Positions 4,381-56,723 of a stretch of 64,000 nt of DNA are shown here, one piece after another. Made by a program: the position numbers and the translations under genes. Under the pieces are notes generated by a model, which was given only the letters and a program-made list of their open reading frames with translations, ran no database searches and had not been told where the DNA came from. The DNA is taken from positions 57,228,001-57,292,000 of the forward strand of contig NW_024704742.1 of NCBI RefSeq assembly GCF_018977255.1, in the 5' to 3' direction. How positions within the stretch are numbered: position 1 is the stretch's first letter; every line of letters starts with the position of its first letter. This DNA is from Callorhinchus milii (taxonomy: Eukaryota).

Positions 4381-5620
4381 TCTGTCCATCTGCGACCAGG
4401 GCTCCCTCTGCCTCCTTGACCTCTCTGTTGCCTTTAGCACTATCGACCACTGTATCCTCATTCCTCATCCACCACCTCTCCTCTCACCTCAACCTTCACG
4501 GCTCTGTCCTTGACTGGTTCAGATCGTATCTCTCACTCTGCCTCCACTTCATCTCCACAAACGGTTTCTCCTCTAGCCCTTGCACTGTCTCGTGTGGCAT
4601 TCCTCAGGACTCTGTCCTTGGTTCCCTCCTCTTCAATATTTATATGCTCTCTCTTGGTGACATCATCCGCAGACATCGGGTCAACTTCCACATTTTTGCG
4701 GATGACGCTCGACTCTATCTCACTGCCTCCACCCTTGACTCCAGGACCACTGCTGTCCTGACAGAATGTCTGTCCGACATCAAGTCCTGGATGAGAGCTA
4801 ACTTTCTTCAGTTGAACAAGACCGAGGCTCTCCTGAGTGGCTCCCTCCAGAGCCTCCTCATCTCAGACATTGACAGCATCACCATCCATGGTTGCACATT
4901 CCACCTTGCCAAACCAGTCCGGAACCTTAGCATCTCGTTTGACCCTCTCAACTATCCTTTCTACCGCACATCTGCGCCATGACATGCTCTGCCTTCCCCC
5001 ACCTCCGCAACATCGTCCGGCTCTGCTGTCGAAACTCTCATGCTTTCATTACATCGAGGCTTGACTATGCAAACTCATTGCTTGTCGGCCTCCCCAGTTC
5101 CTCCCTGCATAGGCTGTAGATCATTCAGAACTCTGCAGTCCGTGTCCTCTCCCGCACCAGGCTCCGTGACCCTATCACTCCCATCCTCGTCCGCCGGCTT
5201 CCAGAGGACACAGAGGATATAGTTCAAGATCTTGGTCCTCGCCTTCAAAGGCCTCCGTGGGCTTGCTCCCCCCTACTTCTGCGATCTCCTAATCCCCTAC
5301 CATCCTGCTCATTCTTTCCACTCAGCGGGCTCCGGCCTGCTTCATGTCCCCTGCCTCGCCCCACTATTCTGCCACTCTGCCCCCACCCTCTGGAACTCCA
5401 TCCCGCAGTCACTCCGCCTCATCCCCTCCCTTGCCACCTTCAAGACCCATCTCAAGACCCTTCTCTTCGACCATGCTTTCGATCTCCCTGCTTCTCCCCC
5501 ACCCCCACCACCTTCCACGCTCCCCGGCCTTGAACCCCAGCTCGGATCTGAAACTCTGTCCTCCGCCTTGGGACGTCCTCCCGACGTGAAAGGCACTATA
5601 CAAATGTAATTTTGTCGTTG
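4381..5620 (+). mobile_element. L2-clade LINE, 5'-truncated and frameshifted (RT C-terminal half plus 3' tail)
   Basis: GIPQDSVLGSLLF and FADD (YADD) motifs, WMRANFLQLN, APTLWNSIP, FKTHLKT; 3' stem-loop plus GTT-rich tail. Confidence 0.9.
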
Positions 5621-33185: not shown

Positions 33186-33380
33186 ATGGAAACGCATGAG
33201 CTGATAAATCACCTACGTGTCCCAGAGCTTTGGGAGCTCCGACAGTACATACGCTCTCTCCCAACATACACGTTAATGGGCATTGGTGCTATTGCTGCAC
33301 TTGTAACTTACTGGTATGCTACAAGAACCAAGCCACCAAAACCGGCATGTGACCTGTCCATGCAATCGATTGAAGTTGCG
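33186..33380 (+). CDS. ACSL1: ACSL1 coding exon 1 (METHEL...SIEVA; includes the N-terminal membrane anchor)
   Basis: Start codon context ACAATGG, upstream polypyrimidine tract plus AG (33156-33166), donor GCG|GTAAGA; 195 nt. Confidence 0.95.
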
Positions 33381-36300: not shown

Positions 36301-39300
36301 CACATTCTAAGGTATTCAAAGTGAAATCTCGTGCAGTGGAAAATCAGGACCTTGGTTTATTGACATCATATATGGAGTGATAAGATTCTCGATGAGGATA
36401 TATAAAGAGGATAAATCCCATATGGAGGTGCAGCATTTCTGCTGATCTTAGCCTTAAGAGCAAACTGTTGATTCTATTGATTTTTTTTCTTAAAGATTTT
36501 TTAAAAAAATCTTAATCTGTCTTAATTTGGATCAAAGAAGCTTTTATGCCTCTGAGTGGATCTTTAGCCTTTTAAATTGTCTAGATTCTTTCTACCTATT
36601 TTGAGTGTGCAATTCTAGTAGTGTAGAAACAGAATCCATGCCCAAGATTAAATTGCAGTTGAATTTCTTTCCTCCCCCTTCCCCCACGTTGCCTTTGTCC
36701 ATTTTTTGTACAGACTCTTCTACTCTTTCTGGACTGAAATTAGCTTTTAATCATTTACAGCTACAGTATATCATTGAGAATATTGACTGCTGTAAACTGC
36801 ATTTCATAGCTTGTCAGGATGATTTAGTTGAGGAATGTGACCTTTAGCATAGTGGACTGTTCCAACTAGTACAGCTTTGCAGAGGAAGATTGGTCAACTG
36901 AGCAATTGTGCACTAGTGCCTACCAGCACGCAATCCGATCTCTTATCACATCTATCAGACTACACAGATGGCAGTGGGAAGTACTGGAGTGTAGCTTGTA
37001 AATTTTTTTTTGGTTCTATTCATTTCATACCAGTGCTTCAGCTTCACCTGAATTGTGCTTGTACGTCATGCAGGTGTTTGCACAATTGGTGACCACACCA
37101 TTTAACCAGGCTATGATGCTTTCTTTAAAAGTTTTGCATAATTTAGTAAACTGCTATTGGATACTAAGGCTGCATCCAGATATCACTATGTAGTCATTTG
37201 GCAGTTTCTTCACTGAATTTGTGCAACATGCTGTAATGCACACCAAACCTGTAATGGTGTTAGCTTTTTGTGCAGATCAATCCAGGCTTGGAGTGATGGG
37301 GATGCAAATAGATTTATAGTTGTATATGAACTTTTTTCAAGTTAAAAATGTATATTCCCTCCTTCCAATGGAATAATCAATAATCCTTGTTTTCCTATAA
37401 TGCTGAAAAAACAAATTGATTCATGCACTATGTATTTGAGGACAAACAGAATTTGCACACAGCAAGATCCCCAAAATAGCTATGGACTGAGTGTCCAATT
37501 TATCCAGTGAATTGTTGGCCAGAACACTGGGAAAGACCCTATTCTCTTTTTAAATCATATTGTGGGGTCTTTAAACATTCACCTGAGCAACTTATTTTAC
37601 ACTCGAGCTCACAGTTCTCATATGCAGCATGATTCTATTGCCTTCCACCCACATTGAGAGTGGCATCTACTGAGCCAAGCTGACAACAACAAATTACATT
37701 TGTATAGCGCCTTTTATGTCAGAAGGACCTCCCAAGGTACTGGATAATCAAGGATTTGGACCCGAGCTGAGGGTTGGGATCAGGAGGGGTGGAGGGTGGG
37801 GAGAGTAGGGGTAGGAGTGTGACCAAAGGCACGGTTGAAGAGTGCAGGCTGGAGCAGAGGGAGGTTGTGGGATGGTCGAGCAGGGATAGGAGACAGGAAA
37901 GACGGTGGAAGAGAAGGATCGAGCGGGAGTAGTGGAGAGTAGAGGACAGGGATGGGAGCATTTTGGGCAAAGCAGCTCGGGTTGGTGGTGGCAGCCAAAA
38001 TACGCACCTGAGACTAAGAACGGGTGGGGGTGCACAGCGTGGAATGCTGGCATGGATCATGGTGTAGGACAGTGTAGTCGTCCTAAAGCACTTTTCATGT
38101 TGGGATGACTTAAATCACTTCACAGGATTTACTGTTAAGTGTAATGGCTGTATTTTGTAGGCTGAAATGGCAGCCAATTTGCAGAGACCCATTAAATGAA
38201 TGACCACAATGTTATGTGGGGGATTGTTGGCCAAGACATTCGAAGAAGTAACCATCCCTTTTTTAATATTGCTTTGGGATTTTAATGCCCACCTGAACAG
38301 TTAGAAAGGGCCTCAGATTAACGTCTCATCCAAAGCATGGCATTTCCAACTTTTGATATGGTGCATTATAAAAATGCAATTTCTTCGTAGTGACATAATG
38401 ATTGTTGGTGGTTTTTGGAAAGTGAGTCTATGTTACCGTTTCATAATAGAATATTGGCAGGTTTTTTTTAAACAAATGCCTCAGTCTTAGTTTTCCAGAC
38501 TCTTAATTATGAACGATGGATCATTCACCCTTAACAATGTCTCAAATTGAACTGCCGACGGCTGCAAAGATCCTTTAAAGACTAAAGTAAATTCTTTGCT
38601 TGTGTACTTGCTGCACAAAAATTAAATTGATGTGAATTTACTGCTGCCCAATGTTTCTTGGAAATATGTCTTTATGCAGAGATGAATAAACTGCTTGAAC
38701 TAGTTACCGGGAAGGGGGTGGTGGAGGTTAGGTCACTGACTTAATTAAGAAACTGCTTGATGCTGAAAATGGAGTAAGGTCGGATGGGTATTCTGGAATG
38801 ATGAGATCAATTGGGCCAAAGGGCCTTCTTCATCCCAAGCCTCTCGTGTTAAAAAAGAGCAACATAAATCACATTGCGCCGTTTTAGGTACTCTTTTGAT
38901 GAGCACTGTTATCAATGCACTCAAGTACTGCACCAATCTAGAACATCTGATATTGATGGTATGTTCCCTGTTTTTGTGACGGTTGTCTTTCATTTGTGCC
39001 TAAATATGTTTTCAACAAAGCGCAACAGCACCGCTCGCTGGTGTTTGTTGGTATTGCAACCATGCGGTTGTGATGAAAGGTTGGGAATAGATGAAGTGAA
39101 CATATTCTGTCAATAGTTGTAATCCTCATTCATGGTTTGATTGACTAGAATCTAGTCCGTATAAACTTCATGAAAGCTGAGGCACTAGTTGTACTACACA
39201 ATTCAACTGCGGCCAAAATTGGGATCATTTTGGCCAAGCATACAGAATTGTTTTTCTTGAAGGAGTTTTAAGTCGCGTATTCATCATTTGGGTTCAGCCA

Positions 39301-40294
39301 ATTTCACTTATTTGTTGCAAAAGAGTTAGTGACAATCTATTTGTAGACAAACACTGGTGCCAATTTACATTCTGCAATATCGCCCAAATATCCATGAAAT
39401 GGAGAATTGTTGGCCGCGACGTATTCCATTCTCATAGTTTCTTGTAATTAACATCCATCTGAACAGGCCAACGGGACCTTGGTGTAATATCTCATCCAAA
39501 TGGCTGCACCTCTCGTAATGCAGCTTGCCCCTATATCGCACTGAAATGTCTGTCTAGACTTTGAACTCAAAGGCCTGACACAGGGCTTGAAACAAAACCT
39601 TCCTATCCCCTAATACCTATTTCTCCTCTTGTTTGGTTTCTGTTCTCTTTCCATGACTTTTTCAAGAATATGGGAAATACTGTTATTAAATAAAGTTTAA
39701 TGATCATTTCTAGTGACCTTGTTATAATGTGGCTGTGCATCGGATATGTTGTACTCCTTACTTTGTTTTCTAATGGGTTGACCCTTATCATTTCAGAGCG
39801 GTGAGCGTGCTCGAAGAAGCGCTCTGCTTAACAGTGATGATTTACTAACTCGGTACTATGAGGACATAACAACACTATACGAAGTGCTAAAAAGAGGGTT
39901 GAGAGTATCTAGTAAGTATTGCTTAATATGGTATTCTTTGAATTATGGTAATGTTTTAAGTCCACGATTGCTTTAACACCTAATGAATTACAGAATTAAC
40001 ATGGAGTTTGCTTCTATTTTTAAAAACATCTAAACGTTTGGTGGTGGGTGGGAATGTGTAAGAAAATACAAGTTTTCTCATGCATTGTGAATCTCAAGCT
40101 TTGGAGGTGTGAAGAATGAAGATGAGTCATTTCTCGCAATGGAAAGTAGGAGAGCTTGATAGACAAATCATCAACTACAATTATATATTTTGTATAGTGC
40201 TTCTAACATTAAGAGGACATCTCACACAGCTGATTGGGAGTTGTGTGTTTGTGTGTGGGGGGAGGGGGGTGGTGTGGGGGCTGGAGTGGGTGTT

Positions 40295-40325
<31 letters not shown>

Positions 40326-43300
40326 GAGACTTGTTTCTATAAATAGCTTGTAACAGAACAGTTATTGAAGCCTTTGAGCAGATTGCCTGTCTGACAAAGG
40401 AAATCGAAACATGTAATAGAGATCTCTTTGTAGGAAGAAAGAGACGTCAGGCAAAAATGGAAGGAAGAAGGAAAACAGAAGTGGGGGAGAGACTGTTTTT
40501 CCCTCTCCTCTCTCTGTGCCACAGCTTACTTTCCCCTTTTACTCTGATGATATTGCCAGTACAAAGCATAGTAATGAGCACTAGCTGCCAAGGTTCTCAA
40601 CCTTGCCCAAAAATGCCCCGTTCCTAACCAAAATTGAAGAATTTTTAAAAGTTCTAAAATTGTTTCTTTTGAAAGAAGTGTATGATTGAACCTAATACTT
40701 TAATATAAGGTATATACAGTATTTATGTTTTTTGTAAAATCAAGTTGTCTAATTCAGGAACATTATAATGGCCTGTCAGTCCAAATCTGGAGTTTTAACA
40801 CTAAACTTGCATATAAAATAGCTTTCGGATAACAATATTGAATGAAGTTTTAAACTTCAACTTTAAATAACTGTATATTATACTAGCTAGCTTTTTCAGA
40901 TTCATTCTGCAATTGAAATCTTATATTTAATAACGAAGCATTTAGAATGACTTGAATTTTCTACACAAAGTGTTGATTGTTATTATTCCGATATTTAGGG
41001 AATGGGCCTTGTTTGGGTTCCAGAAAACCAAATCAGCCTTATGAATGGATGTCCTACACAGAAGTAAGATTTTCTTCTTCAAAAGTAGATTGGTATTCGG
41101 TGGTGGTGGGTGGGTAAGGAGGAGATTTAGTATGAATATATGGAACCCTTGATGTCAGTTCTGCTTTAGTTTGTCCTTTAGTGTTATGATGTTATCAAAT
41201 GCAAGGATTATTATAATGATGTTGGAAGATGTTTTTTGTATTTTTAACTTTTGCACAACTCATTGGATTTTTTTCCATCTCTACTGTGTATTTTTAAATT
41301 ACTGTTAAGATTCTTCTCCTCCCCACAACTTCTTCACTCTGAAATGTTCTTAAAGTTCCTTCCCAATAGTCAGTTAACATTGTTAAATTGACCATTTTAG
41401 TGCAAAATCCTGGCTTGTGCAGGCAGGAAGCAAGTGGGCTGCTGATTGTGCATATGGGCAATGAATGAGGTCCACAGTGAAGCTACTTTATAAGCAAAAT
41501 GAAGAAAATGTATAATTTGCTTGCATTTATAAGAAAATTTGTGCTATAGTTGAAGTACATTTATAACCAGACTGCATTATACTGTGCACATACTGGGTCA
41601 GTTTGTCTCATTGGTAGCTTTTTCATGGCTGAGTCAGAAGGTTGTTGGTTCAAGCCCCACGTTGGGACGTGGAATCACATAGTCTGAGCTGACACTCCAA
41701 TGCAGTGCTGGGGATGTGTTGCATTGTTGGAGGTGCCTTCCTTCGACTGAGACGTTAAACTGAGCTCTTGTCTGCCTGTCCAGGTGGACTTTAAAGATCC
41801 CATGGCACTATTTGAAAAGAGTAGGGAGTTTCTCCCGGCCAACAAATCCCCTAAATAAAATTGGCCACTCACTCCGGGGGTGTTTATGGAACTTGTGTTG
41901 TGCGCAAACTGGGTGTTTCACCCAGCAAATACAGTCAATACACTTTATAGTTTATGCTGTGAAGCACTTTGAGATGTCTCAATGACAAGATAAGGTGCTA
42001 TATCAAATGCAAGATTATTATGAAGATTATTTATTACTTTAATATAAGGTAGTTGGATTTGCATTATTTTTGTCTTTCAGGTCTCAGACAAGGCAGAATT
42101 TCTGGGGTCAGGTTTAATTAATCAAGGATGCAAAGCAACAAATGATCAATTTATAGGAATCTTTGCACAAAATAGACCAGAGGTGAGTTTTCTAGGTGAA
42201 ACTGATGCAGCATAAAGTTTTTTCCTACCCACCAAGAAATATTTTGCCAGGAATTTAAATTGATGTAAAACAATTTGTAACATGCGACCTTCACTATCAT
42301 TTAACTTGTATTCTAGCATTCTTAAATGTACCTTTACTTGGTTATTATGGANTTTTTTTGGTCGGCCGTGTCTGGCATCGACTTGCTTAAGAGTATCCAA
42401 GCCAAGCTGAGTTCCATGCATTCCACCTACACGTGGAGATCCCAGAGATATTTGTTGGGATGGAATGTGTACTCTCTCCCTGGAGGGACACATCTTCTTA
42501 CCTAATTCTGGAAAGTATTAGGTGCAGGTTGGCAAGAGCCAAGGCTTGGGAACCGCAGAGTGTGTGTTGGGGTACTGGAGTCCAACCAGCTAACACTGCA
42601 TAGCTTGCCATTGAGAGCACTGCCTGGCAAGCTTTCCAGCTGCTTGTCCAGCTAGGACCACCCTGCCCCTTAGGGCTTTCGTTTGCAGGGTTAGCAGGAG
42701 CTGAGTAGATAGAGTCTCTGCCCCCGTTGACTGGTTTGTCTGTCCAAACTCTCATCTGTGGTGAATGCTAATTAGCTACAAAGCCAGGGCAGCAGTGATC
42801 GTTGTTCTTGATATCACTGTGCTAGGGAGAGGAAATGCATGTGTATTAATTGGTACATACCCGCAGTTTAAGAAGCCAACGGAAAAGGAGGGAATCTCTT
42901 CAAAATCTTTGCTGTTGAATTCTGTTGACTCTCTCCACAGTTTAACATTAACATTTCATTCAAATGTAGATTCAATCATACAAGTGTCAACACATAAACA
43001 TTATTTTATCTCTCTTTAGTGGGTTATTGTTGAACAAGCCTGCTATGCCTACTCCATGGTGGTTGTGCCTCTTTATGACACATTAGGGTCTGAAGCTATT
43101 TCCTTCATCTTAAAACAAGGTAGGTCTGCTATCAACGAGGTAACTTTTTTTTTAGGGGTGGCGGGGGATTGTGAGTGAGGGGTCCTCATTCTTTCTGGCA
43201 ATTTCAAGTTTTGCCTTCTTCAGACGATAAGGTAAAGGCTCTTTCAATGTCCTGTATCTAAAATCAGGACTGGTTCTGTCAGCGATTATAAATGTATATG

Positions 43301-46300
43301 TTGGGACTGAAATAGCTATTTTAATGAAACTTTGGATTGATGTCAAATGAGAAATTAACCTGATATCTATCCCCTTTCTCTTAGCGGAGATTGCTTTTGT
43401 GTTCTGTGATACGTCGATCAAGGCACATAGTTTACTGGCAGGTGTGGAAAGGGGGCAAACCCCACTCCTAAAGGTGATCATTGTGATGGATCCTATTGGG
43501 AATGATCTTCAAGAGCGAGGAAGGAATTGTGGAGTGAAAATTGTTCATTTTAAGGAAGTAGAGGTGAGGTGTTAAAGAATATCATATCGTGCAATATCCT
43601 ATCAGTAAGCCAGCAGTGCATTTGGAATACTAGGGACCCGCTCATTTTGGGAACCAGACAACTGATGCAGGTTTAGAGGCTCTATTTTGATATTCGTTTG
43701 TGAAGCAAGTCACCGTAGAGGCAGCTCTGCTCCAAGGAGATTCATCTTATCTCCGCCTTCACCTCTCTCCCCACCACCCCTGCCCCTGCCTCATGATATA
43801 CATAATGCATAATAAAGCTTACATGTGGAGTGTAATTGATCCTAGCTTTGCTGATGTGCTACTACAGAACCAATAGTCCAGTACATAATAAACTGTCTCT
43901 TGGGTATAACTTGTAAACTAGTGTGTAATAGTTGTTGTGGTGTTATACTCTGTACATGCAAACAAAATAGTGCATTTATCTTTCATTTATTTTCCTTCTA
44001 GGATGAAGGAAGGGAGCAGAGACGACCTGTAGTAGTAAGTATCTCAGTTTCTTTGCTTCTTATTAAAATGAAGATATGATACTCCAAGTTTGTTGGAGCA
44101 CGGGAATGCCCTAATTAAATCTGTGGGTGAAGCAGAATCTAATAGTTCTTAAAAGGAAGTTAGACAGATGTTTGCAAAAACAAAATGGGCGTGTGGGAAA
44201 TTAATAAATGGGATGCCCCTTTCGCTGTGCTGAATGGTGTCCTGTGCTGTATAACTGTAATGATTCTGTATTGAATTTAAAACTGAAAACTGCACCATCT
44301 TGTCTCATGGGAGGGACATCGCCAGGGGTCCTGACTGCCCAGATCATGCCATATTCCTTATGACAGTTTATTACGGACCACAGAATGTTACAGGAGAGAA
44401 AAAGGTCATTTGGACCATCGTGTTTGCACTAGTATTTTATTCTGCATGAGCCACCAATCAAATCCCACTCTCTTGCTGATCTCTAAACCTTCTGAAAGGC
44501 TTTTTATTGAGCATCTATCTAATTGCCATTAAAGCTTCATGGCTGCTTGTAGGACACTGCTGTGTACAAATTGCTCGCTGGATTTGCCTACAACCACAAT
44601 TACTGTACTACAGTTTGAAGTAAATCCTGTGAAGTGTTTGGAACATTTTGACGATGTGATGTGGAGCTATATCGAATGCAATGTTTATCGTCATTATGAT
44701 TATTAATTTATGGTACTCAGGAACGATTTGTGGCAGAGAATTCAACATTCTGGTTATGCTTTGTGTTAATTTTTTTAGAAAGGCCTAGAAAGATAACAAG
44801 ATATCTTTTGATACAATAAAAATTGAGGGCAGCTTCTTTTCGATGTTCCCTGCTATATAGACACACACAATTTAAACCACATCTAGTTTTTGTTTCTCAC
44901 TTTGAACTAATTAATTCCTATCAATCTGTTCTACATATCTCAACAAAAAAAAGTTTGGCCTTAGGTTTATGCACTAATGAAATTGCACTCACCTTGTCTA
45001 GATAATAGCTTGATCTTGTTCTCCATCTTTTTCAGCCGCCAAAGCCTAGTGATTTAGCTGTTGTTTGTTTCACTAGTGGGACAACAGGTAAATAAACCTC
45101 CAGGACTTTTATGAGCACTGTTTACAGTAGCTTGCTCTGAAATTTCAGAACTTGTTTTGTTGTGTTAATTTATGCTTCTGTTGCATACCCCAATGTTAAT
45201 TTGGCAACTTCTATTACCGTTAAAAGTATATATTTCATATTAAAGCCTTGAACCAACTGTCTGTGTTTCAAAACATTATTTTGCTTATATTCGACTAAAA
45301 TGAGTTTGACTGAAAATCTTAGAAAATATCCTGTTTGTGGTTTGTAGATGATTGTCAGATAATTATAAGCAGATAAGCATAATAGCATAATGCTGCTTTT
45401 TTTTACTTTGACAGATGATATATTCTTATGCTGAATAATTGTAATTGCATTAATAAACCTTGATTGCTTTTACAGGAAATCCCAAAGGGGCAATGCTGAC
45501 TCATGGGAATATCGTGTCTAATCTTTCAGCATTTTTAAAAGTTACAGAGGTAAAAGCCAGCGGCTGCCTTCCATGATGTGGTGGTTTTCCAAAAGGGTTA
45601 ACTAAATATGTATTGGCGAAAACCCAATGTGCTTGTTGAATAGCCAAGGCCCATAGTATATGGTCCCAGGATTGAAAGAGCAGCAGAGAAAATCAGTTCA
45701 ATTAAGATAGTTGGTTCAAGTCGAGCTTGTGAAAATGATTGTATAAGAAATGCAAGGCAGAATGAAGTAAGAGCTTCACTCTTGAGGTCCTGAGAGTGAG
45801 TTAGAACAGGAAGATATTCAGGAGGACCTGTTTGAAGCTTGTGAGGAACACAAGCAGTGAAAATTACTGGCAACACAAAGTATTAGTTAAAATCCAATAA
45901 TAAAGGAAAATTTACAAGGCTGAAGAGGGAGAGGATAGAGTGCTAGAGATGAAGGAACAGTCAATTATTTTGTTTAGAAATGCAAGATGAATGCTCAGAG
46001 CACTCCAGATGTAGGAGCATTTTGGAACTCGGGCATTATAATTACAAATTGTTGAGAGAAAATGAAATGGTGTTAGGGAGGGAACCAAAGCTTTTTGTAG
46101 TGGAGGTTACCAGAAAAGAATATTTATTGATTGAGCAAAGGGCAAGTTGTAGGTTGTTTGAGAAGTACAAGAGATTGAAATTGAATGAGTCAGATATTTT
46201 TAAGCGCAGGAAGTCTGGTCTGGTGATTAAGTGAGCAGAGTAACTGAGACAGCAAAATGAACATAAGCAATAATAATCTTTGGAGTGAGAGTAAACAGGA

Positions 46301-49300
46301 AATTGTGACGTGGTGAAATCTGAGGATCAGCAGATCAGTACAACTTGCAGCAAGTGACCTGATGACCCAGAAGTTGGCTACTTTTTAGCGTGTCACGTGT
46401 ATCATAATTCTGGATGGTTTAGTAGACCTATAAGAAAAATAGTGCATTGCCCTGGAGTGAGTGTGGGGTGGTGGGAGGGTGGGGGGTGCAGAATGCTATG
46501 ACGGGTTTCCTCTATATGTCTTGTTTTGAACATCTCTGCTCATATATCTGACAAAATAAATGTGGTAGCCAAGATCAGTATGGCTATAATTGGTGTTCTG
46601 TATTACTGCTGCTAATGGAATGCAATGCTCCCAAAAATAATAATCAAATTTAAATAGAGTATTTTCCATAAGCTTATAGCTTTATGGATTTTTTAAAATA
46701 CTAATTGTAGCTTTATTATTAAAATACATAATGAAATTTGCTGTAAACTACTTGATGGAAGCATCATTAAAATTGGTTTTGAGCACTTACTGAACATTTT
46801 AATAATGTGCAGATGTGAGGGATAACCTTAACTATTGTAAATCTTTCTCTTCATTGATGGTGATTTAAAAAATTACGTTGAATTCTGCTAATTTAAAAAG
46901 AACTTTGAATTTTGTAATTGTGCTTGTGAATAATCAGCATGTTGTAATTGTGCAAATTGTGCCTTGAAGGTTGTGATTATTGTATAATTTCTTTTAATTT
47001 TGTGCATCTTTCCATCTTTCTTCCTCTAATCATGCAGAAAGTGGGCGTCCCAACTCCAGCTGATTCTTTAATTTCTTTCTTACCCCTGGGTCATATGTTT
47101 GAAAGAATAGTTGAGGTAGGTGTCATAGTTGGCCTGAGATGTGCATTGTGTTTTTACAGGGCCATTGGGTTCCATTGTCCACTGACATACACCTTTCCTT
47201 TTTACCACTTGCACACATGTTTGAAAGATTGGTGGAGGTAAGGTGCAGAATGTTTAGAATAAGGTATATTGGAATTGACCATTCTCCTGCTCATAATTGA
47301 TAAGATAACCATTGTATAATTCATATAATTTTTTTCTGAACTCGCAGTGACCTAGGTTCAGGGGCATAACATGAAGAATATAGCTTAGTAAAATTATACA
47401 ATTCATAATTCCCTGTTTGGGTGCAGTCAGTTCACTACTTAATGCAAAATCAGGAAACCATAACTATTTGATCGTTTTACAGATACAGAGTACAGTATAA
47501 TCATTGGCGGATTATTGTATGAACATCTTGACACAAAATTATAATCCTGAAAAGTTATGAATAGTTGGTTAATGGGACTTGTAGATTTCATTCTACACAT
47601 TTCTATATCGCATCCAGAGAAATTTTGTGCCAAAAGGTTTCAAAACACTTTAACCCGTTTTTAGATAAAGATCTAATTGCTTTAAGTGTTATCCTCTCAA
47701 CGTGAAAGGCACTGTATGAGTGTAAATTGTACTGTAAGATTTGAGTAGGATGGAAGTCTCTCGCAATGAGCCAATTTCTTTTTTATGTTACCTGAAAAAT
47801 ATTGTTGTGCTCTTTAATAATCCCAATATTTGATGCAGCATCAATGGCGTCAATGTCTCCAATCCTTCACAGAATTGCTGTAACGTCTGTGTAATTGTAG
47901 ATGAAATTGCCAGCTAATTTGCATGCAGTAAAGCTCCACAAGCTGGATTATCAAGAATTTTTGGCCAGGATACCTGGGAAAAATTCCCTTCTATTTTTGA
48001 ATTGTGTGTGAGATCTTTAATATCCATCTGAATAGGCTCCCAAGACTTTGGTTTAATATCTCATTCAAAGGACAGCATCTCAATCATTGCATTGTCTTAT
48101 TTTGTGAATCTAATGTACAATGTAGAATATGTAGTGCACTTATTATATGAATTGAATGTTTTGTTTTGATAGATAGACCTTTTTAAAAAATTATAAATAT
48201 TACAATTGATTAAGCTAAAGAGTAAACATTGACATTTGTACCAAATTACAATATGTGGCGATGTTAAAATTGAATTACAAAGAACAGTTTGGAGAGAGAA
48301 ATGAGTAATCCATTGAAGTAAAGGGGCTTTGAACGATGGAGTTGAAATGCACTTTGGAGCAGGGTAAGAGTTGTATATAATACACATACAAATAGGATCT
48401 TGCTCAGAAGGGGGACAGGGCAGGAGGGCAATTTGAGGGAAAACTTGCCACCTAATTACATTGTTACCAAATAAATTTGCCCTTTACGATATGTAAAGTC
48501 CTCCTTTTGTATCAAATCTTTATATTTGTTGACTTGAATTATGTCAGTTGATTTCTCACGTCTCCCAAATAAAAAAAAGGCTATTCCTTACTGGTGGTTC
48601 AACTTAAAAAAAAAAAAAAAAAAAATCCAGTCTCTTCTTAGATCTTTAGTGGGTACCATGTAGTTGAGTTTTGATTTTGAGGTGAGAAAGTATTTCAGTT
48701 CCGCGTTGCTTGGAAAGATGCTCCTCGTGATTAGTTCTCACTTTTGGTGGGTGTAAATGACTGGTTATTTGAGATTTACTTGATTTCATGAAATATTTGC
48801 AAAGCTTAACATTTTGAAAATAAGGCACTGATTGATGTTAATGAGAGCAATTTGTCTTTGGTATGTTTTTTTCTAACTTGTGGCCTCAATACAAAATATC
48901 ACACTAAATTACATTTGTAAAGCACCTTTCGTTTTGGGAGTGCATCCCAAAGCACTGAACAGTCAGGGATTACGACCCGAGCGGGTGTGGGAGTTTGGGG
49001 GTTTGGGGATCAGGGAGGGTGGAGGATTGTTCAATGCTGAACAACAAAAGAATCTGAATTAAATATTCAGGTTACAACAAACTTAATAGCTTATTGTAGA
49101 GTTGCAGAGTTTGTATGTATTTTCTGGTTGACGTTTCAGGCTGTGGTTCTCTGTCATGGGGCACGGATCGGATTCTTTCAGGGAGATATCAGACTGCTTA
49201 TGGATGACCTAAAAGCATTAAAACCAACTGTCTTGCCTGTAGTTCCCCGGCTACTCAATAGGATGTTTGATAAGGTGAGTCAGAATTGTTTGTGGAATTT

Positions 49301-52300
49301 GGTTTATGAATTAATTTTTTAAAATCAAACTTATTTATTGAAATGAATGTTTCTTTTATTTAATTGGAACAATTGCATTTTATTTGTTCAACTTTTGTGT
49401 ACATAGGATATAGGCTGTCCGATTTTTTTCCGGTGAGGGAGGAGGAATTTAGGGCAAAGGAAAGGATGTTGATGCATTTTTCTCTTGTTTTTGATTGTTT
49501 TGTTCTGCTATCAGCAAGTCTTTGCTTTCACAGCATCACTAATAACAACTTGGTTTTTAGATAGCAATCTTCATGTAGAATAACATCACAGAGCACTCCA
49601 ACAAAAGTTTGATCTTTTTCTCTCTCATAAACTGTTTTAAACCCTTCTCTATATTATCTGGGGACAATAGAGGGGTTTATTGTACATTTTAAGTTGCAAA
49701 GTTCTTTTCTGCTTTTCATCAACATTATTTTTAGTTGTAGACCCCTAAGGCTCATCTTGATGACACTGATTCCATTCAACACCTTCCACTGTAGCATGTT
49801 GGGTCCCAGATATAAAAAATATTTTGAATGCTATTCCATTCCAAAGACATTTCTCTTTCTTTGGTCTTTCATTTCATAGAACCTGTTCTTAACTTGGCTA
49901 AAGGCCTCAGTGGTGCCAACCAATTTCTTGGAAGGCAATCCTGCCTACCAGAAAGTCAAAGCCCAAAACATCCTGATCATGTCACAAATTCAAGGGATAT
50001 GAGGACTTGCTGAAGACACTTCATCTGATTAATGGTAGAATCATGGATGAGCTGCTTCTTTTGTGCAGACAACATTCAGTTCATTTCTAATCTGGTTTGT
50101 AAAGTGAAAGGCACTGTTTAAACGCAAGTTGTTCTTTACTTGCCGTCTTTCAATTCCTTCTACCCCTAGAAATGTCTAATATCTGGTCATAACCGTGCTG
50201 GAATTTATTTATTTATTTATTTAACCGTGTGTTGGGAATTTATTTTTCAGGTGCACAACCAGGCTAACGGCCTTATAAAACGGCAGGTGTTAGAATTTGC
50301 AGCTTGGAGGAAAGAAGCACAACTTCAAAATGGGATAGTGTGTCGTGACACTATATGGGACAAGTTAGTCTTCCATAAAGTACAGGTATGCAATTTGTCC
50401 AGTGAATGATTAACATTAAACTCTATTAATAATGTAAATCTGTATTCCCTGTACAAAGAACAGTATTTTATTAAGACGTCTTTTTAATCCATTTGATTTC
50501 GTCACCATCTCACTCGCTCATCATCCAGCAGCTCTGACTCTGTTTTATTAAAAACCTGTGTTTTTTAAAAAAAGAAACTATGTTGAATTAATCTTTGTGA
50601 CTTGAAGCCTATTTTTGTTTGAAATGCAATTTCTGCCTGTAGGACAATCTTGGTGGTCGGGTAAAATTGATGGTGACTGGAGCTGCTCCTGTGTCTGAAA
50701 CTGTACTTACTTTTCTCCGGGCAGCCATTGGTTGCCAGGTAAGTTCAAGTTTTGTTTTTATTTCTCCAAGAGGTACAAAGACTGGCAAGCTTATACAGGT
50801 TTCTGGGACAAGTGGATCAAATCAATGAACGAAATGACTAGTATAGTTATACAGGGCAACACTGTAATAATGCCTTCGACTGAGTCCAGTATCTCAGTGA
50901 CCACGTCATCAAAAAAAAAAATGGCCTGGCCTGGCCCACTTGTGGGATTGGCTTAGTTGTCTTAATGGAAGTCTTTTAAAGAGGAATAATATTCAGGGGA
51001 GAAACAAGACTAAAACAGACCCATTCCATGGCTATAAAATTTCTCCTCGAAATCCCAAACGGTACAACTCGATTAGAATGCAGTTTTTCGGGAGTCTGTA
51101 TTTTTAACTGGGTGCAATTGAGAGCGGCTGCTGGTCAGAGCTTCAGCATTACGACATCACTGATCGCTTAACTGGTGATATCTGTACATACTAGTCAGCA
51201 ATCCACAGGCATCGTGCTTCGAATCCTGTTTTGTGCCGATGTGTCTTGCAGCGTGATGAGAGGATTTCAAGAACGATGACGCAGTTTGAAATGTCAATGG
51301 CTGGTTTGGATGGTGCCCTGTCAGGATTTGGGATTTTTAGATATGAAAATGTCAGGGTCCACAACCCTATTGTGTTATAAGTGAACCCGTGTTACATGAA
51401 CCATATTATAAATGGGTTCTACAATATCAAAATATTTATACTGTATTCTAAGGCTAAAGTGACTGACTGCGCAAAAAGCAGCCTCCTGAAGATGTACAAA
51501 ACTGAACATCTCTAAAACGACATACCTTGGTTTATTCTATTCTTTGTCTTTCTTCCCCCTTCTCTTTACCCACCCACACACACACACACACACAGACTTC
51601 CCACATGAAAATGGTGATTTTGGTAACCCAATCCATTGAGACCGGTAACCATGTTGAAAAGAGATTCTGTTCTAACTTTTAGTTGCAGTATTTACTTTTT
51701 CAAACTTAAAATTAACTTTTTAACCCCAAATAATTGAAAAGTAGCCTTTTCTTTGTGTGTCATTTGTAGATGTTAATGAAGAATGAGAGCTATGAACCAT
51801 TTGTGGAACTTACTTGCTCAGCAATAATGCATATTCCATCACCTTTTCCTTTGAACCACCACGCCAATAAAAACATTGTCACTTGCTGCCTAGCACTCCT
51901 AGATCTTTGTGCATTAAATATCCAACTGTGAAACGTGTGGTCAACCTACCTAAAGGAGTGTAATATTGCATATGCTTTTGATACTTTTGCAGTTTTATGA
52001 GGGCTATGGACAAACTGAATGCACAGCAGGTTGTACAATGAGCATCCCCGGCGACTGGACAGCAGGTATAAGCATAAGATGGAGTTATATAAATTGTATT
52101 TTTTTTAATATAGTGAAAAGCAAATTTTTGTTTTGTTTCTAGACTTTGAAGCAAACTTATTAAATTTAGTGAAAATTAAGTTGATTACATAATTCATTAT
52201 TGACTAGCTGACAGTTAAATTATTTTGCTTTATGAACTCATTTACTTATAGCATCAAATTGATGTATAGCTTCATATCAGCAATGCATAGTCTAACTGCA

Positions 52301-53983
52301 GAGGTGAATTTTTGTTATTTGTCCCACAAATTACGACTGATAACTGTTTCTTTTAAATACAGGTCATGTTGGAGCTCCAATGCCTTGTAATATTATTAAG
52401 CTTATTGATGTAGAAGATATGGATTATTTTGCAGTTAAAGGAGAGGGAGAGGTAAGTGGAAAAGGTTCTGTTCAGCGTGTGTTGCTTAATTTGTGTTTGT
52501 ATACTTTACCAACCAAGTATGCTGTGAATGAGAAAAGCTTTGGTCTCTACTTTAAGTCCTGAATGCTAGAAGTTTACAAACAGGAATTTAAAAAAACTGA
52601 ACCCTCTTTGTTTACTCAATCTGACTTACCTAATCATTGGTAGGTAAACCTTCAGTCATTCTTCTGCTCTCTGGAGCTCCAATCCAGAGTCCCTCTCCCT
52701 TGCCCCTCCCTCCTTTCCTGCCTTCAAAACCCATATTAACACTTATCTTTTCAGCTTCCCTCTCTCTGTGTCTGTCTGAATGTTTCTCCCTCTCTTTTCC
52801 CCCCTTCTCAAGTTTCGGTTCTCATTCAGCTGTGTGAATTGCCTTAAGATCCAGATAAATTGAAGGAACTAAGGACAGGAAAGGTGTGTGTACTTCATGG
52901 ATAAGAGCGAGCTTGCCAAGTAGGAAGCTGAAAAAAGATCTAGGCGTATTAGTTGACTCTTTGCTCACAATGTCAAAACAGTGTAAGACAGCATCAAAGA
53001 TGGCCAGTAGGCTGCTGGGCTATATTGCTAAATCAGTTGAGTCCTGTAGCTCAGTGGTTAGAGCACTCGCTTTGTAAGTGAGAGACCTGGGTTCAATTCC
53101 AGACACAGGGCGAAACCTTGGGCAAGTTTCCTTACTCCACACAGAGCCTAATAATAATCCCTCCAAAAACAATAATAAATTGGTCATTTTCAATCTACGA
53201 CTGTTTGTGGGACATTGCTGTGCGCAATTGGCTGCCGCGTTCGCCCACAGATATGCAGTCAATTCACTTTACAGTGTGTTCTGTGAAGCGCTTTGGGACG
53301 TCCTCCCGACGTGAAAAGCGCTATATCAAATGCAAGGATTATTATTATTATTATAGTTGAGTTCAGATTCCCAGATATCCTAATCGAGCTATACAGTATT
53401 TTGGTCACCAGCCCCTAGAGTATTGCATGCAGTTCTGGTTGCCACAACATGAGCTACTACTCCATTGACGCCTCTTTGTACAGTAAAATAATAATAATTT
53501 GCTGATTCAGCCCACACCTAGGTCAAGAACTAAGCTTATGGGGAGCAGTGCAGAGGAGAGCAACACGGATTACAAGAATGAGCTATGAGCTGGGCCAGTA
53601 GAAAAGTGTGGCTGCACTTTTTCCATGGAATCCACTATCAACAGTGCCTCTGCTACAAACCCACTAAAAATGTAGTTTCTGGCCCTCGGGTCTCTCGCTG
53701 TTTACCAGACCTCCCTGTAGGCAGGGCGGCTCTAGACATGTGTGCGCAGCGATGTGCAAGCGGGAAATGGGCTTCACTCAGAGACCCTTGTTGAGATTGT
53801 GCGTGAGTGTGTCTCTGTCTTTCTGTGTCTCTGTCTGTGTGTGTCTCTGTCTGTGTGTGTGTGTCTCTGTCTGTCTGTGTGTGTGTCTCTGTCTGTGTGT
53901 GTGTGTGTGTCTCTGTCTGTGTGTGTGTGTGTGTCTCTCTGTCTGTGTGTGTGTGTGTGTGTCTCCCTGTCTGTGTGTGTGTG

Positions 53984-54022
<39 letters not shown>

Positions 54023-54785
54023 GTGTGTGTGTGTGTGTCTGTGTGTGTGTGTGTGTGTCTCTGTCTGTGTGTGTGTGTGTGTGTCTCTGTCTGTGTGTGT
54101 GTGTGTGTGTCTCTGTCTGTGTGTGTGTGTGTGTGTCTCTGTCTGTGTGTGTGTGTGTGTGTCTGTGTCTGTGTGTGTGTGTGTGTGTCTCTGTCTGTGT
54201 GTGTGTGTGTGTGTCTCTGTCTGTGTGTGTGTGTGTGTGTCTCTGTCTGTGTGTGTGTGTGTGTGTGTCTCTGTCTGTGTGTGTGTGTGTGTGTGTGTGT
54301 CTCTGTCTCTGTCTGTGTGTGTGTGTGTGTGTGTGTCTGTCTGTGTGTGTGTGTGTGTGTCTCTTGTGTGTGTGTGTGTGTGTCTCTGTCTGTGTGTGTG
54401 TGTGTGTCTCTGTCTGTGTGTGTGTGTGTGTCTCTGTCTGTGTGTGTGTGTGTGTCTCTGTCTGTGTGTGTGTGTGTGTCTCTGTCTGTGTGTGTGTGTG
54501 TGTCTCTGTCTGTGTGTGTGTGTGTGTGTGTCTCTGTCTGTGTGTGTGTGTGTGTGTGTCTCTGTCTGTGTGTGTGTGTGTGTGTCTCTGTCTGTGTGTG
54601 TGTGTGTGTGTCTCTGTCTGTGTGTGTGTGTGTGTGTCTCTGTCTGTGTGTGTGTGTGTGTGTCTCTGTGTGTGTGTGTGTGTGTGTCTCTGTGTGTGTG
54701 TGTGTGTGTGTGTCTCTGTGTGTGTGTGTGTGTGTGTGTCTCTGTGTGTGTGTGTGTGTGTCTCTGTGTGTGTGTGTGTGTGTGT

Positions 54786-54817
<32 letters not shown>

Positions 54818-55428
54818 CTCTGTGTGTGTGTGTGTGTGTGTGTCTCTGTCTGTGTGTGTGTGTGTGTGTCTCTGTCTGTGTGTGTGTGTGTGTGTCTCTG
54901 TCTGTGTGTGTGTGTGTGTGTCTCTGTCTGTGTGTGTGTGTGTGTGTCTCTGTCTGTGTGTGTGTGTGTGTGTCTCTGTCTGTGTGTGTGTGTGTGTGTC
55001 TCTGTCTGTGTGTGTGTGTGTGTCTCTGTCTGTGTGTGTGTGTGTGTCTCTGTCTGTGTGTGTGTGTGTGTCTCTGTCTGTGTGTGTGTGTGTGTCTCTG
55101 TCTGTGTGTGTGTGTGTGTCTCTGTCTGTGTGTGTGTGTGTGTCTCTGTCTGTGTGTGTGTGTCTCTGTCTGTGTGTGTGTGTCTCTGTCTGTGTGTGTG
55201 TGTGTCTCTGTCTGTGTGTGTGTCTCTGTCTGTGTGTGTGTGTCTCTGTCTGTGTGTGTGTGTCTCTGTCTGTGTGTGTCTCTGTGTGTGTGTGTCTGTG
55301 TCTGTGTGTGTGTCTGTGTCTGTGTGTGTGTGTCTGTCTGTGTGTGTGTGTGTGTCTGTGTGTGTGTCTCTGTCTGTGTGTGTGTGTGTGTGTGTCTCTG
55401 TCTGTGTGTGTGTGTGTGTGTGTGTCTC

Positions 55429-55461
<33 letters not shown>

Positions 55462-56110
55462 CTCTGTCTGTGTGTGTGTGTGTCTGTGTGTGTGTGTGTG
55501 TCTGTGTGTGTCTGTGTGTGTGTGTGTGTCTGTGTGTGTGTGTGTGTCTCTGTGTGTGTGTGTGTGTCTCTGTCTGTGTGTGTGTGTCTCTGTCTGTGTG
55601 TGTGTGTGTCTCTGTCTGTGTGTGTGTGTCTCTGTCTGTGTGTGTGTGTGTGTCTCTGTCTGTGTGTGTGTGTGTGTCTCTGTCTGTGTGTGTGTGTCTC
55701 TGTCTGTGTGTGTCTCTGTCTGTGTGTGTCTCTGTGTGTGTGTGTGTGTGTGTCTCTGTCTGTGTCTGTGTGTCTGTGTGTGTGTCTCTGTCTGTGTGTG
55801 TGTCTCTGTCTGTGTGTGTGTCTCTGTCTGTGTGTGTGTCTGTGTGTGTGTGTGTGTGTCTCTGTCTGTGTGTGTGTGTGTGTGTGTGTGTCTCTGTCTG
55901 TGTGTGTGTGTGTGTGTGTGTGTCTCTGTCTGTGTGTGTGTGTGTGTGTGTGTCTGTGTGTGTGTGTGTGTGTCTGTGTGTGAGTGTGTGTCTCTGTCTG
56001 TGTGTGTGTGTGTGTGTCTGTGTGTGTGTCTGTCTGTCTGTCTGTCTGTGTGTCTGTCTGTCTGTCTGTCTGTCTGTGTCTGTCTGTCTGTGTCTGTCTG
56101 TCTGTGTGTC

Positions 56111-56146
<36 letters not shown>

Positions 56147-56269
56147 TGTCTGTGTGTCTGTGTCTGTGTGTGTGTCTGTCTGTGTGTCTGTGTGTCTGTG
56201 TCTCTGTGTGTGTGTCTGTGTCTCTGTGTGTGTGTGTCTCTGTGTGTGTGTGTCTGTGTGTGTGTGTGT

Positions 56270-56301
<32 letters not shown>

Positions 56302-56339
56302 CTCTGTGTGTGTGTGTGTGTCTCTGTGTGTGTGTGTGT

Positions 56340-56378
<39 letters not shown>

Positions 56379-56595
56379 TCTGTGTGTGTGTGTCTCTGTG
56401 TGTGTGTGTGTGTGTCTCTGTGTCTGTGTGTGTGTGTCTCTGTGTGTGTGTGTGTGTGTGTCTCTGTGTCTGTGTGTGTGTGTGTCTCTGTGTCTGTGTG
56501 TGTGTGTGTCTCTGTGTGTGTGTGTGTGTCTCTGTGTGTGTGTGTGTGTGTCTCTGTGTGTGTGTGTGTGTGTCTCTGTGTGTGTGTGTGTGTGT

Positions 56596-56679
<84 letters not shown>

Positions 56680-56692
56680 CTCTGTGTGTGTC

Positions 56693-56723
<31 letters not shown>

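What the first reader, a model, noticed from the sequence alone, without database searches (positions are those of the whole stretch)
47038..47237. Tandem mutually exclusive 'gate' exons of ACSL1, both with Phe (F/F instead of F/Y)
Seen: two 78-nt phase 0-0 exons with good splice sites encode [26 protein letters not shown] and [26 protein letters not shown]. Known: mammalian ACSL1 and ACSL6 have mutually exclusive F-gate (D-x-L-I-S-F) and Y-gate (D-x-H-I-S-Y) exons that alter fatty-acid preference. Exon B has the Y-gate hallmarks (D-x-H and an upstream Trp as in the ACSL6 Y exon) but TTT (Phe, 47199-47201) where TAT (Tyr) is expected, making a His/Phe hybrid gate. Inference: the alternative-gate system predates the split of this lineage from bony vertebrates, and the Y-type exon here has changed specificity, which may matter for unusual liver lipid metabolism.
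Basis: partly seen in the sequence, partly recalled or inferred. Interest (0 to 1): 0.75.

Follow-up and report, generated by a model that had tools for sequence, protein, structure and literature searches.

The report
Ordinary alternative gate exons of ACSL1
The two tandem 78-base exons are the real, already annotated, mutually exclusive "gate" exons of the chimaera ACSL1 gene, and the phenylalanine in the second exon is the commonest state in vertebrate ACSL1 genes, not a peculiarity of this lineage.

Summary
Observation confirmed; interpretation mostly not supported.

**The exons.** Exon A (47038-47115) and exon B (47160-47237) are each 78 nt, phase 0-0, with AG/GT sites. They encode the reported peptides, and TTT is at 47199-47201. 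Together they are coding exon 10 of a 20-exon, 698-aa gene.

**The gene.** It groups with elasmobranch "ACSL1/1a" proteins and lies outside the ACSL6 clade. A caspase-3-like gene sits about 39 kb downstream.

**Expression.** RNA-like contigs of 4 of 4 runs (2 studies) join exon 9 to A to exon 11. No joint with exon B was seen, but contigs drop minor forms. Exon B is in the public UniProt model for Callorhinchus milii. Both exon types are RefSeq isoforms in 8 shark and ray species.

**The His/Phe "hybrid".** It is common: 89 of 124 non-ACSL6 species rows have F. That is 11 of 16 chondrichthyans, 71 of 84 mammals and 4 of 4 sauropsids, with at least 12 F/Y flips on a gene tree. ACSL6 second exons are H/Y in 44 of 44 proteins.

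**Side point.** This natural H..F pair is the one that nearly inactivated human ACSL6 mutants (PMC2868784).

The parts
33186..62920 (+). Coding part of the ACSL1-orthologue gene: 20 coding exons, 698 aa with either exon A or exon B. Exons: 33186-33380, 39797-39911, 40999-41063, 42081-42182, 43020-43119, 43385-43563, 44002-44034, 45036-45087, 45476-45549, A or B, 49140-49274, 50251-50385, 50643-50738, 51993-52065, 52363-52451, 58220-58336, 59806-59949, 61066-61167, 61801-61872, 62780-62920.
   Evidence: tblastn of P0003 and P0123 on the window. Splice-consistent model with AG/GT at every junction and one terminal stop. Joints 45087>45476, 45549>47038, 47115>49140, 49274>50251 and 50385>50643 seen in contigs. 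Pfam AMP-binding 8.6e-83 on P0003.
45476..45549 (+). Coding exon 9 (...[24 protein letters not shown]), the donor exon for both gate exons.
47038..47115 (+). Gate exon A (first type, Leu at gate-3, Phe gate, LPLGH): [26 protein letters not shown].
   Evidence: Joined to exon 9 and exon 11 in the high-depth contig of 4 of 4 runs. 21 of 26 residues identical to the Scyliorhinus exon-A isoform.
47116..47159 (+). 44-nt intron between A and B, too short for A-to-B splicing; the inferred cause of mutual exclusion.
   Evidence: Length. Threshold (<50 bp from donor to branch point counts as potential steric interference) from a PMC5740500 passage. 0 of 44 chondrichthyan isoforms carry both exons.
47160..47237 (+). 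Gate exon B (second type, His at gate-3, Phe gate, Trp at position 3): [26 protein letters not shown].
   Evidence: Present in UniProt model A0A4W3J6G6 (P0003). 19-20 of 26 residues identical to elasmobranch exon B. No spliced contig seen in 4 runs.
47199..47201 (+). TTT (Phe) codon at the 'gate' position of exon B.
   Evidence: No other letter listed there in the X2 and X3 contigs that cover it.
49140..49274 (+). Coding exon 11 ([16 protein letters not shown]...), the acceptor exon for both gate exons.

Best explanation
These are coding exons 10a and 10b of the ACSL1 orthologue of a chimaera. The window encodes, exon for exon, the UniProt protein named Callorhinchus milii A0A4W3J6G6. The two exons are an ancient tandem duplicate, and each encodes the 26-residue segment D-x4-[F/Y]-LPL[A/G]H-x2-E next to the ATP site of a long-chain acyl-CoA synthetase. 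One of the two is included in each mRNA. The 44-nt intron between them is too short to be spliced out, so A cannot be joined to B (inferred). Skipping or including either one keeps the frame. Exon A is the first type (Leu at gate-3, Phe) and is the form seen in the RNA-like contigs examined. Exon B is the second type (His at gate-3), homologous to the human 'Y-gate' exon. Its Phe is not a local novelty. By parsimony it is ancestral for chondrichthyan ACSL1, and it is the commonest state of this exon in ACSL1 of mammals and sauropsids. The stable difference between the two ACSL1 exons is therefore Leu versus His at gate-3 together with the N-terminal half of the exon, not Phe versus Tyr. Shown: exon structure, exon A splicing, orthology, and the distribution of F and Y. 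Inferred: use of exon B in this species, the steric mechanism, and any kinetic difference.
For: Sequence and frames. Exon A joints in 4 of 4 runs from 2 studies. Exon B is part of a public model of this gene (P0003, whose exons match the window at 100% in most HSPs). Orthology has two supports. In a 35-row tree with gate exons removed, the window is sister to 9 elasmobranch ACSL1/1a/1-like proteins (SH-aLRT 100) and lies outside the ACSL6 clade, which holds 2 chondrichthyan ACSL6-like proteins (100). A caspase gene lies at G000:C1:57330692-57333492 on the same strand, and its last exon hits caspase-3 best (5jft 1.5e-32); Casp3 flanks Acsl1 according to a PMC3890633 passage. In relatives, 11 isoform proteins from 8 species carry an A-type exon (all LPLGH), 31 carry a B-type exon, 2 carry none and 0 of 44 carry both. 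The gate residue of the second exon is F in 89 and Y in 35 of 124 non-ACSL6 species rows: chondrichthyans 11 F and 5 Y, mammals 71 and 13, sauropsids 4 and 0, amphibian 0 and 1, ray-finned fish 3 and 16. A FastTree gene tree needs at least 12 changes, 2 of them in chondrichthyans. ACSL6-type second exons are H/Y in 44 of 44 proteins, and first-type exons are L/F in 107 of 108. The same genome holds an ACSL6-type pair with a 45-nt intron.
Against: No contig in the 4 runs laid joins exon B to exon 9 or 11. X1 and X4 have no cover at 47212-47412, and X2 and X3 cover exon B only with low-depth unspliced contigs. Contigs drop minor isoforms, tissues are unknown, and the runs are only guessed to be RNA. 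The UniProt model that contains exon B is faulty elsewhere: it lacks exons 6 and 7 and reads into introns, so it may rest on protein alignment rather than on transcripts. The F/Y tally comes from the best 120 hits of each of two searches whose queries themselves carried F, plus cluster members, so the proportions are biased towards F. The tree has no ACSL5 or ACSL2 outgroup, and ACSL1 of all vertebrates is not recovered as one side of a branch. The steric mechanism was not tested.
Confidence: 0.85

Rival explanations
1. One reading: the Y-type exon underwent a lineage-specific Tyr-to-Phe change that altered fatty-acid specificity and is linked to the unusual liver lipid metabolism of this group.
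For: Exon B does have F where human ACSL1 (PMC1543647, Table 2 passage) and all 44 ACSL6 second exons have Y. In human ACSL6, Y-to-F in the Y-gate context strongly lowers activity (PMC2868784, section 6), so the residue can matter.
Against: F is shared by 11 of 16 chondrichthyan species, 71 of 84 mammal rows and 4 of 4 sauropsids. On the gene tree only 2 changes are needed within chondrichthyans, with Y confined to Orectolobiformes and Narcine, so F is not derived in this lineage. Nothing ties it to the liver.
Confidence: 0.04
2. Exon B is an unused, decaying relic in this species, and only exon A is functional.
For: Only 9-A-11 joints were seen in contigs of 4 of 4 runs. The one public model with exon B is defective elsewhere.
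Against: Exon B has an open frame, AG and GT sites, an intact D-x4-F-LPLAH-x2-E motif and 19-20 of 26 residues identical to elasmobranch exon B, despite a very old split (age recalled, not computed). B-type isoforms are annotated in all 15 elasmobranch species retrieved. Contigs show presence, not absence.
Confidence: 0.08
3. The gene is not ACSL1 but another 2R paralogue (ACSL2 or ACSL5), so comparisons with ACSL1 are misplaced.
For: The tree lacks ACSL2 and ACSL5 sequences, and vertebrate ACSL1 is not monophyletic on the unrooted tree. The caspase neighbour scores only slightly better against human caspase-3 (102 bits) than caspase-7 (101 bits).
Against: The best caspase hit is zebrafish caspase-3a (114 bits). 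A separate single-gate, ACSL5-like exon lies on contig 7 near other caspase genes. ACSL5 is reported to encode only one gate exon (PMC1543647 passage). The Acsl2 locus is flanked by other genes (EGR3, BIN3, STC1; PMC3890633 passage). NCBI names all the sister proteins ACSL1, 1a or 1-like.
Confidence: 0.05

Closest known systems
Human ACSL1 Ex(F)/Ex(Y) mutually exclusive gate exons (Soupene & Kuypers 2006, PMC1543647)
   Same: Two tandem exons of 26 codons encode D-x4-[F/Y]-LPLAH-x2-E, with the F/Leu-type exon upstream and the His-type exon downstream. Protein length is 698 aa. No-gate forms exist, and two elasmobranch isoforms also lack the motif.
   Different: Human and chimpanzee have Tyr in the second exon (paper), whereas the window has Phe, as do most other mammals listed. 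Exon A here has LPLGH rather than LPLAH, a trait of all 11 chondrichthyan A-type isoforms. Exon B keeps a Trp at position 3 that ACSL1 of bony vertebrates lacks.
ACSL6 F-gate/Y-gate exon pair (PMC1543647; PMC2868784)
   Same: Homologous exon pair in the same order. The Trp at position 3 and D-x-H in the second exon resemble exon B. The copy in this same genome also has a very short intervening intron of 45 nt.
   Different: The ACSL6 second exon is H/Y in 44 of 44 proteins. The window gene lies outside the ACSL6 clade.
RefSeq isoform sets of elasmobranch ACSL1a (e.g. Scyliorhinus canicula X1/X2, Carcharodon carcharias X1/X2)
   Same: Orthologous genes with the same A-type (LPLGH) and B-type (x-x-W...D-x-H-x-S-F/Y) alternatives, never both. 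Up to 74% identity with the window protein.
   Different: Species only. Orectolobiform sharks and Narcine have Tyr in exon B.
Mutually exclusive exons enforced by steric interference (class described in Hatje et al. 2017, PMC5740500; the alpha-tropomyosin exon 2/3 example is recalled, not checked)
   Same: The intron between the alternatives (44 nt) is shorter than the <50 bp donor-to-branch-point distance used as the criterion.
   Different: Not tested here. In bony vertebrates many predicted isoforms carry both exons, so the block may be weaker there.

Membership tests
Long-chain acyl-CoA synthetase (AMP-binding superfamily) | AMP-binding domain over Pfam's threshold | tested here: met
   PF00501 scores 278.7 bits (cut-off 29.9) on P0003, the public model encoded by the window. 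PF13193 reaches 24.1 bits, just under its cut-off of 24.5.
ACSL1 orthologue | Groups with ACSL1-named proteins and not with ACSL6 | tested here: met
   Sister to 9 elasmobranch ACSL1/1a/1-like proteins (SH-aLRT 100) and outside the ACSL6 clade (100). No ACSL2 or ACSL5 outgroup was included, so monophyly of all ACSL1 was not tested.
ACSL1 orthologue | Linkage to CASP3 | tested here: met
   Caspase exons lie 39-41 kb downstream on the same strand, with best PDB hits to caspase-3. The margin over caspase-7 is small for the human proteins.
ACSL1/ACSL6 mutually exclusive gate-exon pair | Two tandem 78-nt phase 0-0 exons, each encoding D-x4-aromatic-LPL-x-H-x2-E | tested here: met
ACSL1/ACSL6 mutually exclusive gate-exon pair | Transcripts carry one or the other exon, never both | tested here: inconclusive
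   9-A-11 was seen in 4 of 4 runs. No B joint and no A-B joint was seen, but the data are contigs only. In relatives, 0 of 44 isoforms carry both.
'Y-gate' exon as defined in PMC1543647 (D-x4-Y-LPLAH-x2-E) | Tyr immediately before LPLAH | tested here: not met
   TTT (Phe) at 47199-47201. By position, His at gate-3 and overall similarity the exon is still the homologue of the Y-gate exon.
'Y-gate' exon | His three residues before the gate residue (H316 of human ACSL6, PMC2868784) | tested here: met
   D-I-H-L-S-F in exon B.

The most novel reading that the evidence does not exclude
The His(-3)/Phe(gate) pairing nearly abolished activity when engineered into human ACSL6, and its authors concluded it 'cannot be present' (PMC2868784, section 7). 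Yet it is the natural, long-conserved state of the alternative ACSL1 exon in most jawed vertebrates sampled, including this chimaera. So the Phe/Tyr switch would not be what keeps the ACSL1 exon pair alive. The exon-B isoform would be either a low-activity or regulatory partner (ACSL isoforms form mixed oligomers, per the same paper's abstract), or it would depend on compensating residues specific to ACSL1. Two searches found no paper in the searched library that discusses H/F second exons in ACSL1.
Probability: 0.3. Interest if true: 0.4.

Novelty: already known. Interest (0 to 1): 0.2.

Why it matters
For this window, it matters little. The gene, both exon types and their antiquity are already in public annotation and in print, and the Phe is not a lineage-specific event.

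The comparison has one useful by-product for people who work on ACSL enzymes. The textbook "F-gate/Y-gate" description of ACSL1 is drawn from human and mouse. In the proteins retrieved here, the second ACSL1 exon carries Phe in about 7 of 10 species rows and has flipped between Phe and Tyr at least 12 times, whereas ACSL6 keeps Tyr without exception. That weakens the published idea that the Phe/Tyr substitution is the reason the splice choice is conserved. It points instead to the Leu/His position and the first half of the exon.

Tried and rejected
- **Short query.** One search used the 61-aa stop-to-stop frame around exon B with lengths 'longer' and gave only 4 candidates and 1 hit.
- **RNA evidence for exon B.** The look-up of sequencing runs listed no holder on record as RNA (10 'RNA? 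guess' rows). Read laying on X1-X4 showed no joint that uses exon B. Because these are contigs, this is no evidence against its use. Both caps are now spent, so raw-read junction counts and tissue differences could not be obtained.
- **RNA pairing that might guide exon choice.** There are 10 inverted pairs in 45550-49139. One of them (45621-45636 with 47156-47171, 16 nt, 81% complementary) covers the exon B acceptor. About 24 nine-base seeds are expected by chance in 3.6 kb (my estimate), and no conservation data are available, so I treat it as chance.
- **Earlier notes of this scan.** Nothing was noted near this place. One unrelated note concerned arthropod FATP gate exons and was not used.
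- **Solved structures.** No ACSL structure was among the best 60 hits. The nearest are carboxylic acid reductase adenylation domains, so no residue-level structural reading of the His/Phe pair was attempted, and no structure prediction was run.
- **Upstream neighbour gene.** A Pfam scan of 12 long open frames in 1-33000 found only a reverse-transcriptase fragment.
- **dN/dS on exon B.** This was not possible, because the tools gave no DNA of relatives.
Full report
**1. Observation**

Exon A runs from 47038 to 47115, preceded by AG and followed by GTAGGT. Exon B runs from 47160 to 47237, preceded by AG and followed by GTAAGG. They translate to [26 protein letters not shown] and [26 protein letters not shown]. 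The Phe codon TTT of exon B lies at 47199-47201. The exons share 45 of 78 bases and 15 of 26 residues. A 44-nt intron (47116-47159) separates them.

**2. The gene**

A search with the open frame around exon B returned one protein, P0003. Its source names it a long-chain-fatty-acid--CoA ligase of Callorhinchus milii (UniProt A0A4W3J6G6, 650 aa), and it contains exon B.

- tblastn of P0003 and of a catshark isoform (P0123) on the window mapped the gene to 33186-62920 on the + strand.
- With splice sites enforced, the gene has 20 coding exons and gives 698 aa with either gate exon. Every junction is AG/GT.
- The public model lacks exons 6 (43385-43563) and 7 (44002-44034) and reads into introns instead.
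- P0003 matches Pfam AMP-binding at 8.6e-83.

**3. Which ACSL**

I built a tree of 35 proteins with the gate exons cut out.

- The window protein is sister to nine elasmobranch proteins that NCBI calls ACSL1, 1a or 1-like (SH-aLRT 100).
- ACSL6 of tetrapods plus two chondrichthyan ACSL6-like proteins form a separate clade (100).
- The tree has no ACSL2 or ACSL5 outgroup, and tetrapod, teleost and chondrichthyan ACSL1 groups are not one side of a branch. The tree excludes ACSL6 but does not by itself prove ACSL1.

Synteny supports ACSL1. A Pfam caspase search of the genome found exons at contig 1 57330692-57333492, about 39-41 kb downstream on the same strand. The last exon hits caspase-3 best (zebrafish 5jft at 1.5e-32; human caspase-3 about 7e-29; caspase-7 2.2e-28). 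Lopes-Marques et al. (PMC3890633; passages seen) name Casp3 among the genes flanking Acsl1 and place Acsl2 in a different neighbourhood. The same genome also holds a single-gate, ACSL5-like exon on contig 7 and an ACSL6-type tandem pair on contig 13.

**4. Transcripts**

The look-up of sequencing runs listed ten contig sets guessed to be RNA, from three studies. I laid X1-X4 (two studies) on 44800-50800.

- In all four runs, one high-depth contig (depth 53-146) joins 45549 to 47038 and 47115 to 49140, and also joins the neighbouring exons. Exon A is therefore spliced as predicted.
- No joint uses exon B.
- X2 and X3 cover exon B only with unspliced contigs of depth 5.7 and 12. Those contigs list no other letter at 47199-47201.
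- These are assembled contigs, which drop minor isoforms, and the tissues are unknown. Use of exon B in this species therefore stays open.

**5. Relatives**

A search scored on residues 240-300 of P0003 gave 1685 hits, of which the best 120 were listed. Cluster members of ten chondrichthyan representatives added 34 isoforms. Of the 44 chondrichthyan isoform proteins from 15 species:

- 11 proteins from 8 species carry an A-type exon, all with LPLGH;
- 31 carry a B-type exon;
- 2 carry no gate motif, with lengths that fit skipping of both exons;
- none carries both.

So the pair is annotated as mutually exclusive across sharks and rays. The Gly in LPLGH of exon A is a chondrichthyan trait, not a peculiarity of the window.

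**6. Is His/Phe unusual?**

No. A third search, scored on the second exon of a gibbon ACSL1 isoform, gave 275 hits, of which the best 120 were listed. I labelled every retrieved non-ACSL6 protein by species, using the names printed, and read the second-type exon. Two further mammal rows had no readable second exon.

| Group | F rows | Y rows | Notes |
|---|---|---|---|
| Chondrichthyans | 11 | 5 | Y in four orectolobiform sharks and Narcine |
| Mammals | 71 | 13 | Y in chimpanzee, rats, mouse, woodrat, four marsupials, pig, Tamandua, Dasypus, Pteronotus |
| Sauropsids | 4 | 0 | |
| Amphibian | 0 | 1 | |
| Ray-finned fishes | 3 | 16 | F in notothenioids |
| Total (124 scoreable rows) | 89 | 35 | |

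On a FastTree tree of these 124 proteins without their gate exons, the F/Y state needs at least 12 changes: 7 in mammals, 2 in chondrichthyans and 1 in ray-finned fishes. By contrast, ACSL6-type second exons are His/Tyr in 44 of 44 proteins, and first-type exons are Leu/Phe in 107 of 108.

Caveat: both searches were seeded with Phe-bearing exons and list only the top 120 hits, so the proportions lean towards Phe. The existence of many H/F exons does not depend on that bias.

Within chondrichthyans, Phe is found in the chimaera, skates, a stingray, and in hexanchiform, pristiophoriform, heterodontiform, lamniform and carcharhiniform sharks. By parsimony Phe is ancestral there and Tyr is derived twice.

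**7. What is conserved**

- The second exon keeps His three residues before the gate residue in nearly all rows. Exceptions are Gln in murid and cricetid rodents, Glu in Jaculus, Leu in one seadragon protein, and Tyr in second forms of elephants and armadillo.
- The first exon keeps Leu at that position.
- Chondrichthyan exon B keeps a Trp at position 3 in 16 of 16 species, as do all ACSL6 Y exons. None of the bony-vertebrate ACSL1 second exons listed has it. It reflects retention of an ancestral, ACSL6-like first half of the exon.

**8. Mechanism**

Shown: the two exons are alternatives at one position of an AMP-binding enzyme, and exon A is used.

Inferred from established knowledge: an intron of 44 nt cannot place a branch point at a workable distance from the donor. 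Hatje et al. 2017 (PMC5740500; passages seen) count less than 50 bp as potential steric interference. So A cannot be spliced to B, and the mRNA carries one of them, or neither. The ACSL6 pair of the same genome has a 45-nt intron, which suggests the arrangement is old. In bony vertebrates many predicted isoforms hold both exons, some with an in-frame retained intron of 57 or 69 nt (spacings), so the block may be weaker there.

Function of the segment: in human ACSL6, changing the aromatic residue to Ala nearly abolishes activity, and the two exon forms differ in activity (PMC2868784; abstract and sections 6-7 read).

**9. A point that deserves mention**

The same paper reports that His316 with Phe319 gives nearly inactive enzyme. 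This held whether the pair was made by Y-to-F in the Y-gate form or by L-to-H in the F-gate form. The authors conclude that His cannot be present with Phe. [quoted passage not shown]

The natural second exon of ACSL1 in most species retrieved here is exactly His with Phe. Either ACSL1 tolerates what ACSL6 does not, or these isoforms are weak enzymes with another role. Two literature searches (the latter found 4 papers with the terms Y-gate or F-gate) turned up no discussion of this in the searched library. This is a property of ACSL1 in general, not of this window.

**10. Comparison with the literature and verdict**

- The exon pair in ACSL1 and ACSL6 was described in 2006 (PMC1543647).
- Its origin before the ACSL1/ACSL6 duplication in jawed vertebrates is listed by Abascal et al. 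2015 (PMC4494069; Table 2 passage).
- The isoforms are in RefSeq for sharks and rays, and exon B is in a UniProt model of this species.

The finding is therefore a correct reading of an ordinary, known feature. Its interesting claim, a lineage-specific hybrid gate, is not supported. Supplementary files of PMC3890633 (Additional file 1, with the chondrichthyan sequences) were not opened and might hold the elephant shark sequences that the authors used.

Noticed in passing
G000 contig 13, about 3706692-3706882, minus strand (L005 1340-1620 read on '-'): This is the ACSL6-type gate pair of the same genome. The F exon ([26 protein letters not shown], 78 nt) is followed by a 45-nt intron and then a Y-type exon that is 80 nt as assembled. 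Two extra bases put its first half (SQWLPTSDDV) and second half (HMSYLPLAHLFERMVQ) in different frames. This is either a real frameshift in the ACSL6 Y exon or an assembly error.
   Followed up: partly
window 45621-45636 and 47156-47171: A 16-nt, 81% complementary inverted pair links intron 9 (72 nt past the exon 9 donor) with the acceptor of exon B. It could mask or present that splice site, but it is at chance level for this AT-rich 3.6 kb and no conservation data are available.
   Followed up: no
window 47038-47115 (exon A): Exon A has LPLGH where all 97 other first-type exons of bony vertebrates retrieved have LPLAH. The Gly is shared by all 11 chondrichthyan A-type isoforms (8 species).
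   Followed up: yes
window 54001-58000: Extreme composition (AT skew -1.0 to -0.86, GC skew +0.55 to +0.34, GC about 0.5) marks a simple repeat of several kb, poor in A and C, inside the long intron 52452-58219.
   Followed up: no
window 4371-4979 (+): This open frame matches reverse transcriptase (PF00078, 4.3e-10) and is a retroelement fragment upstream of the gene. No other gene was detected among 12 long open frames in 1-33000.
   Followed up: partly
window 43120-43160 and 45009-45035: The public 650-aa model of this gene (P0003) reads into introns here and omits coding exons 6 (43385-43563) and 7 (44002-44034). The junction from exon 7 to exon 8 is confirmed by the loose end of contigs at 45036.
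   Followed up: yes
Proteins P0160, P0208, P0209, P0211 (woodrat, rats, mouse) and P0096 (seadragon): Murid and cricetid ACSL1 second exons have Gln, not His, at gate-3 (D-T-Q-I-S-Y). In one seadragon protein the His/Leu states of the two exons are swapped (first D-V-H-I-S-F, second D-V-L-V-S-Y).
   Followed up: no
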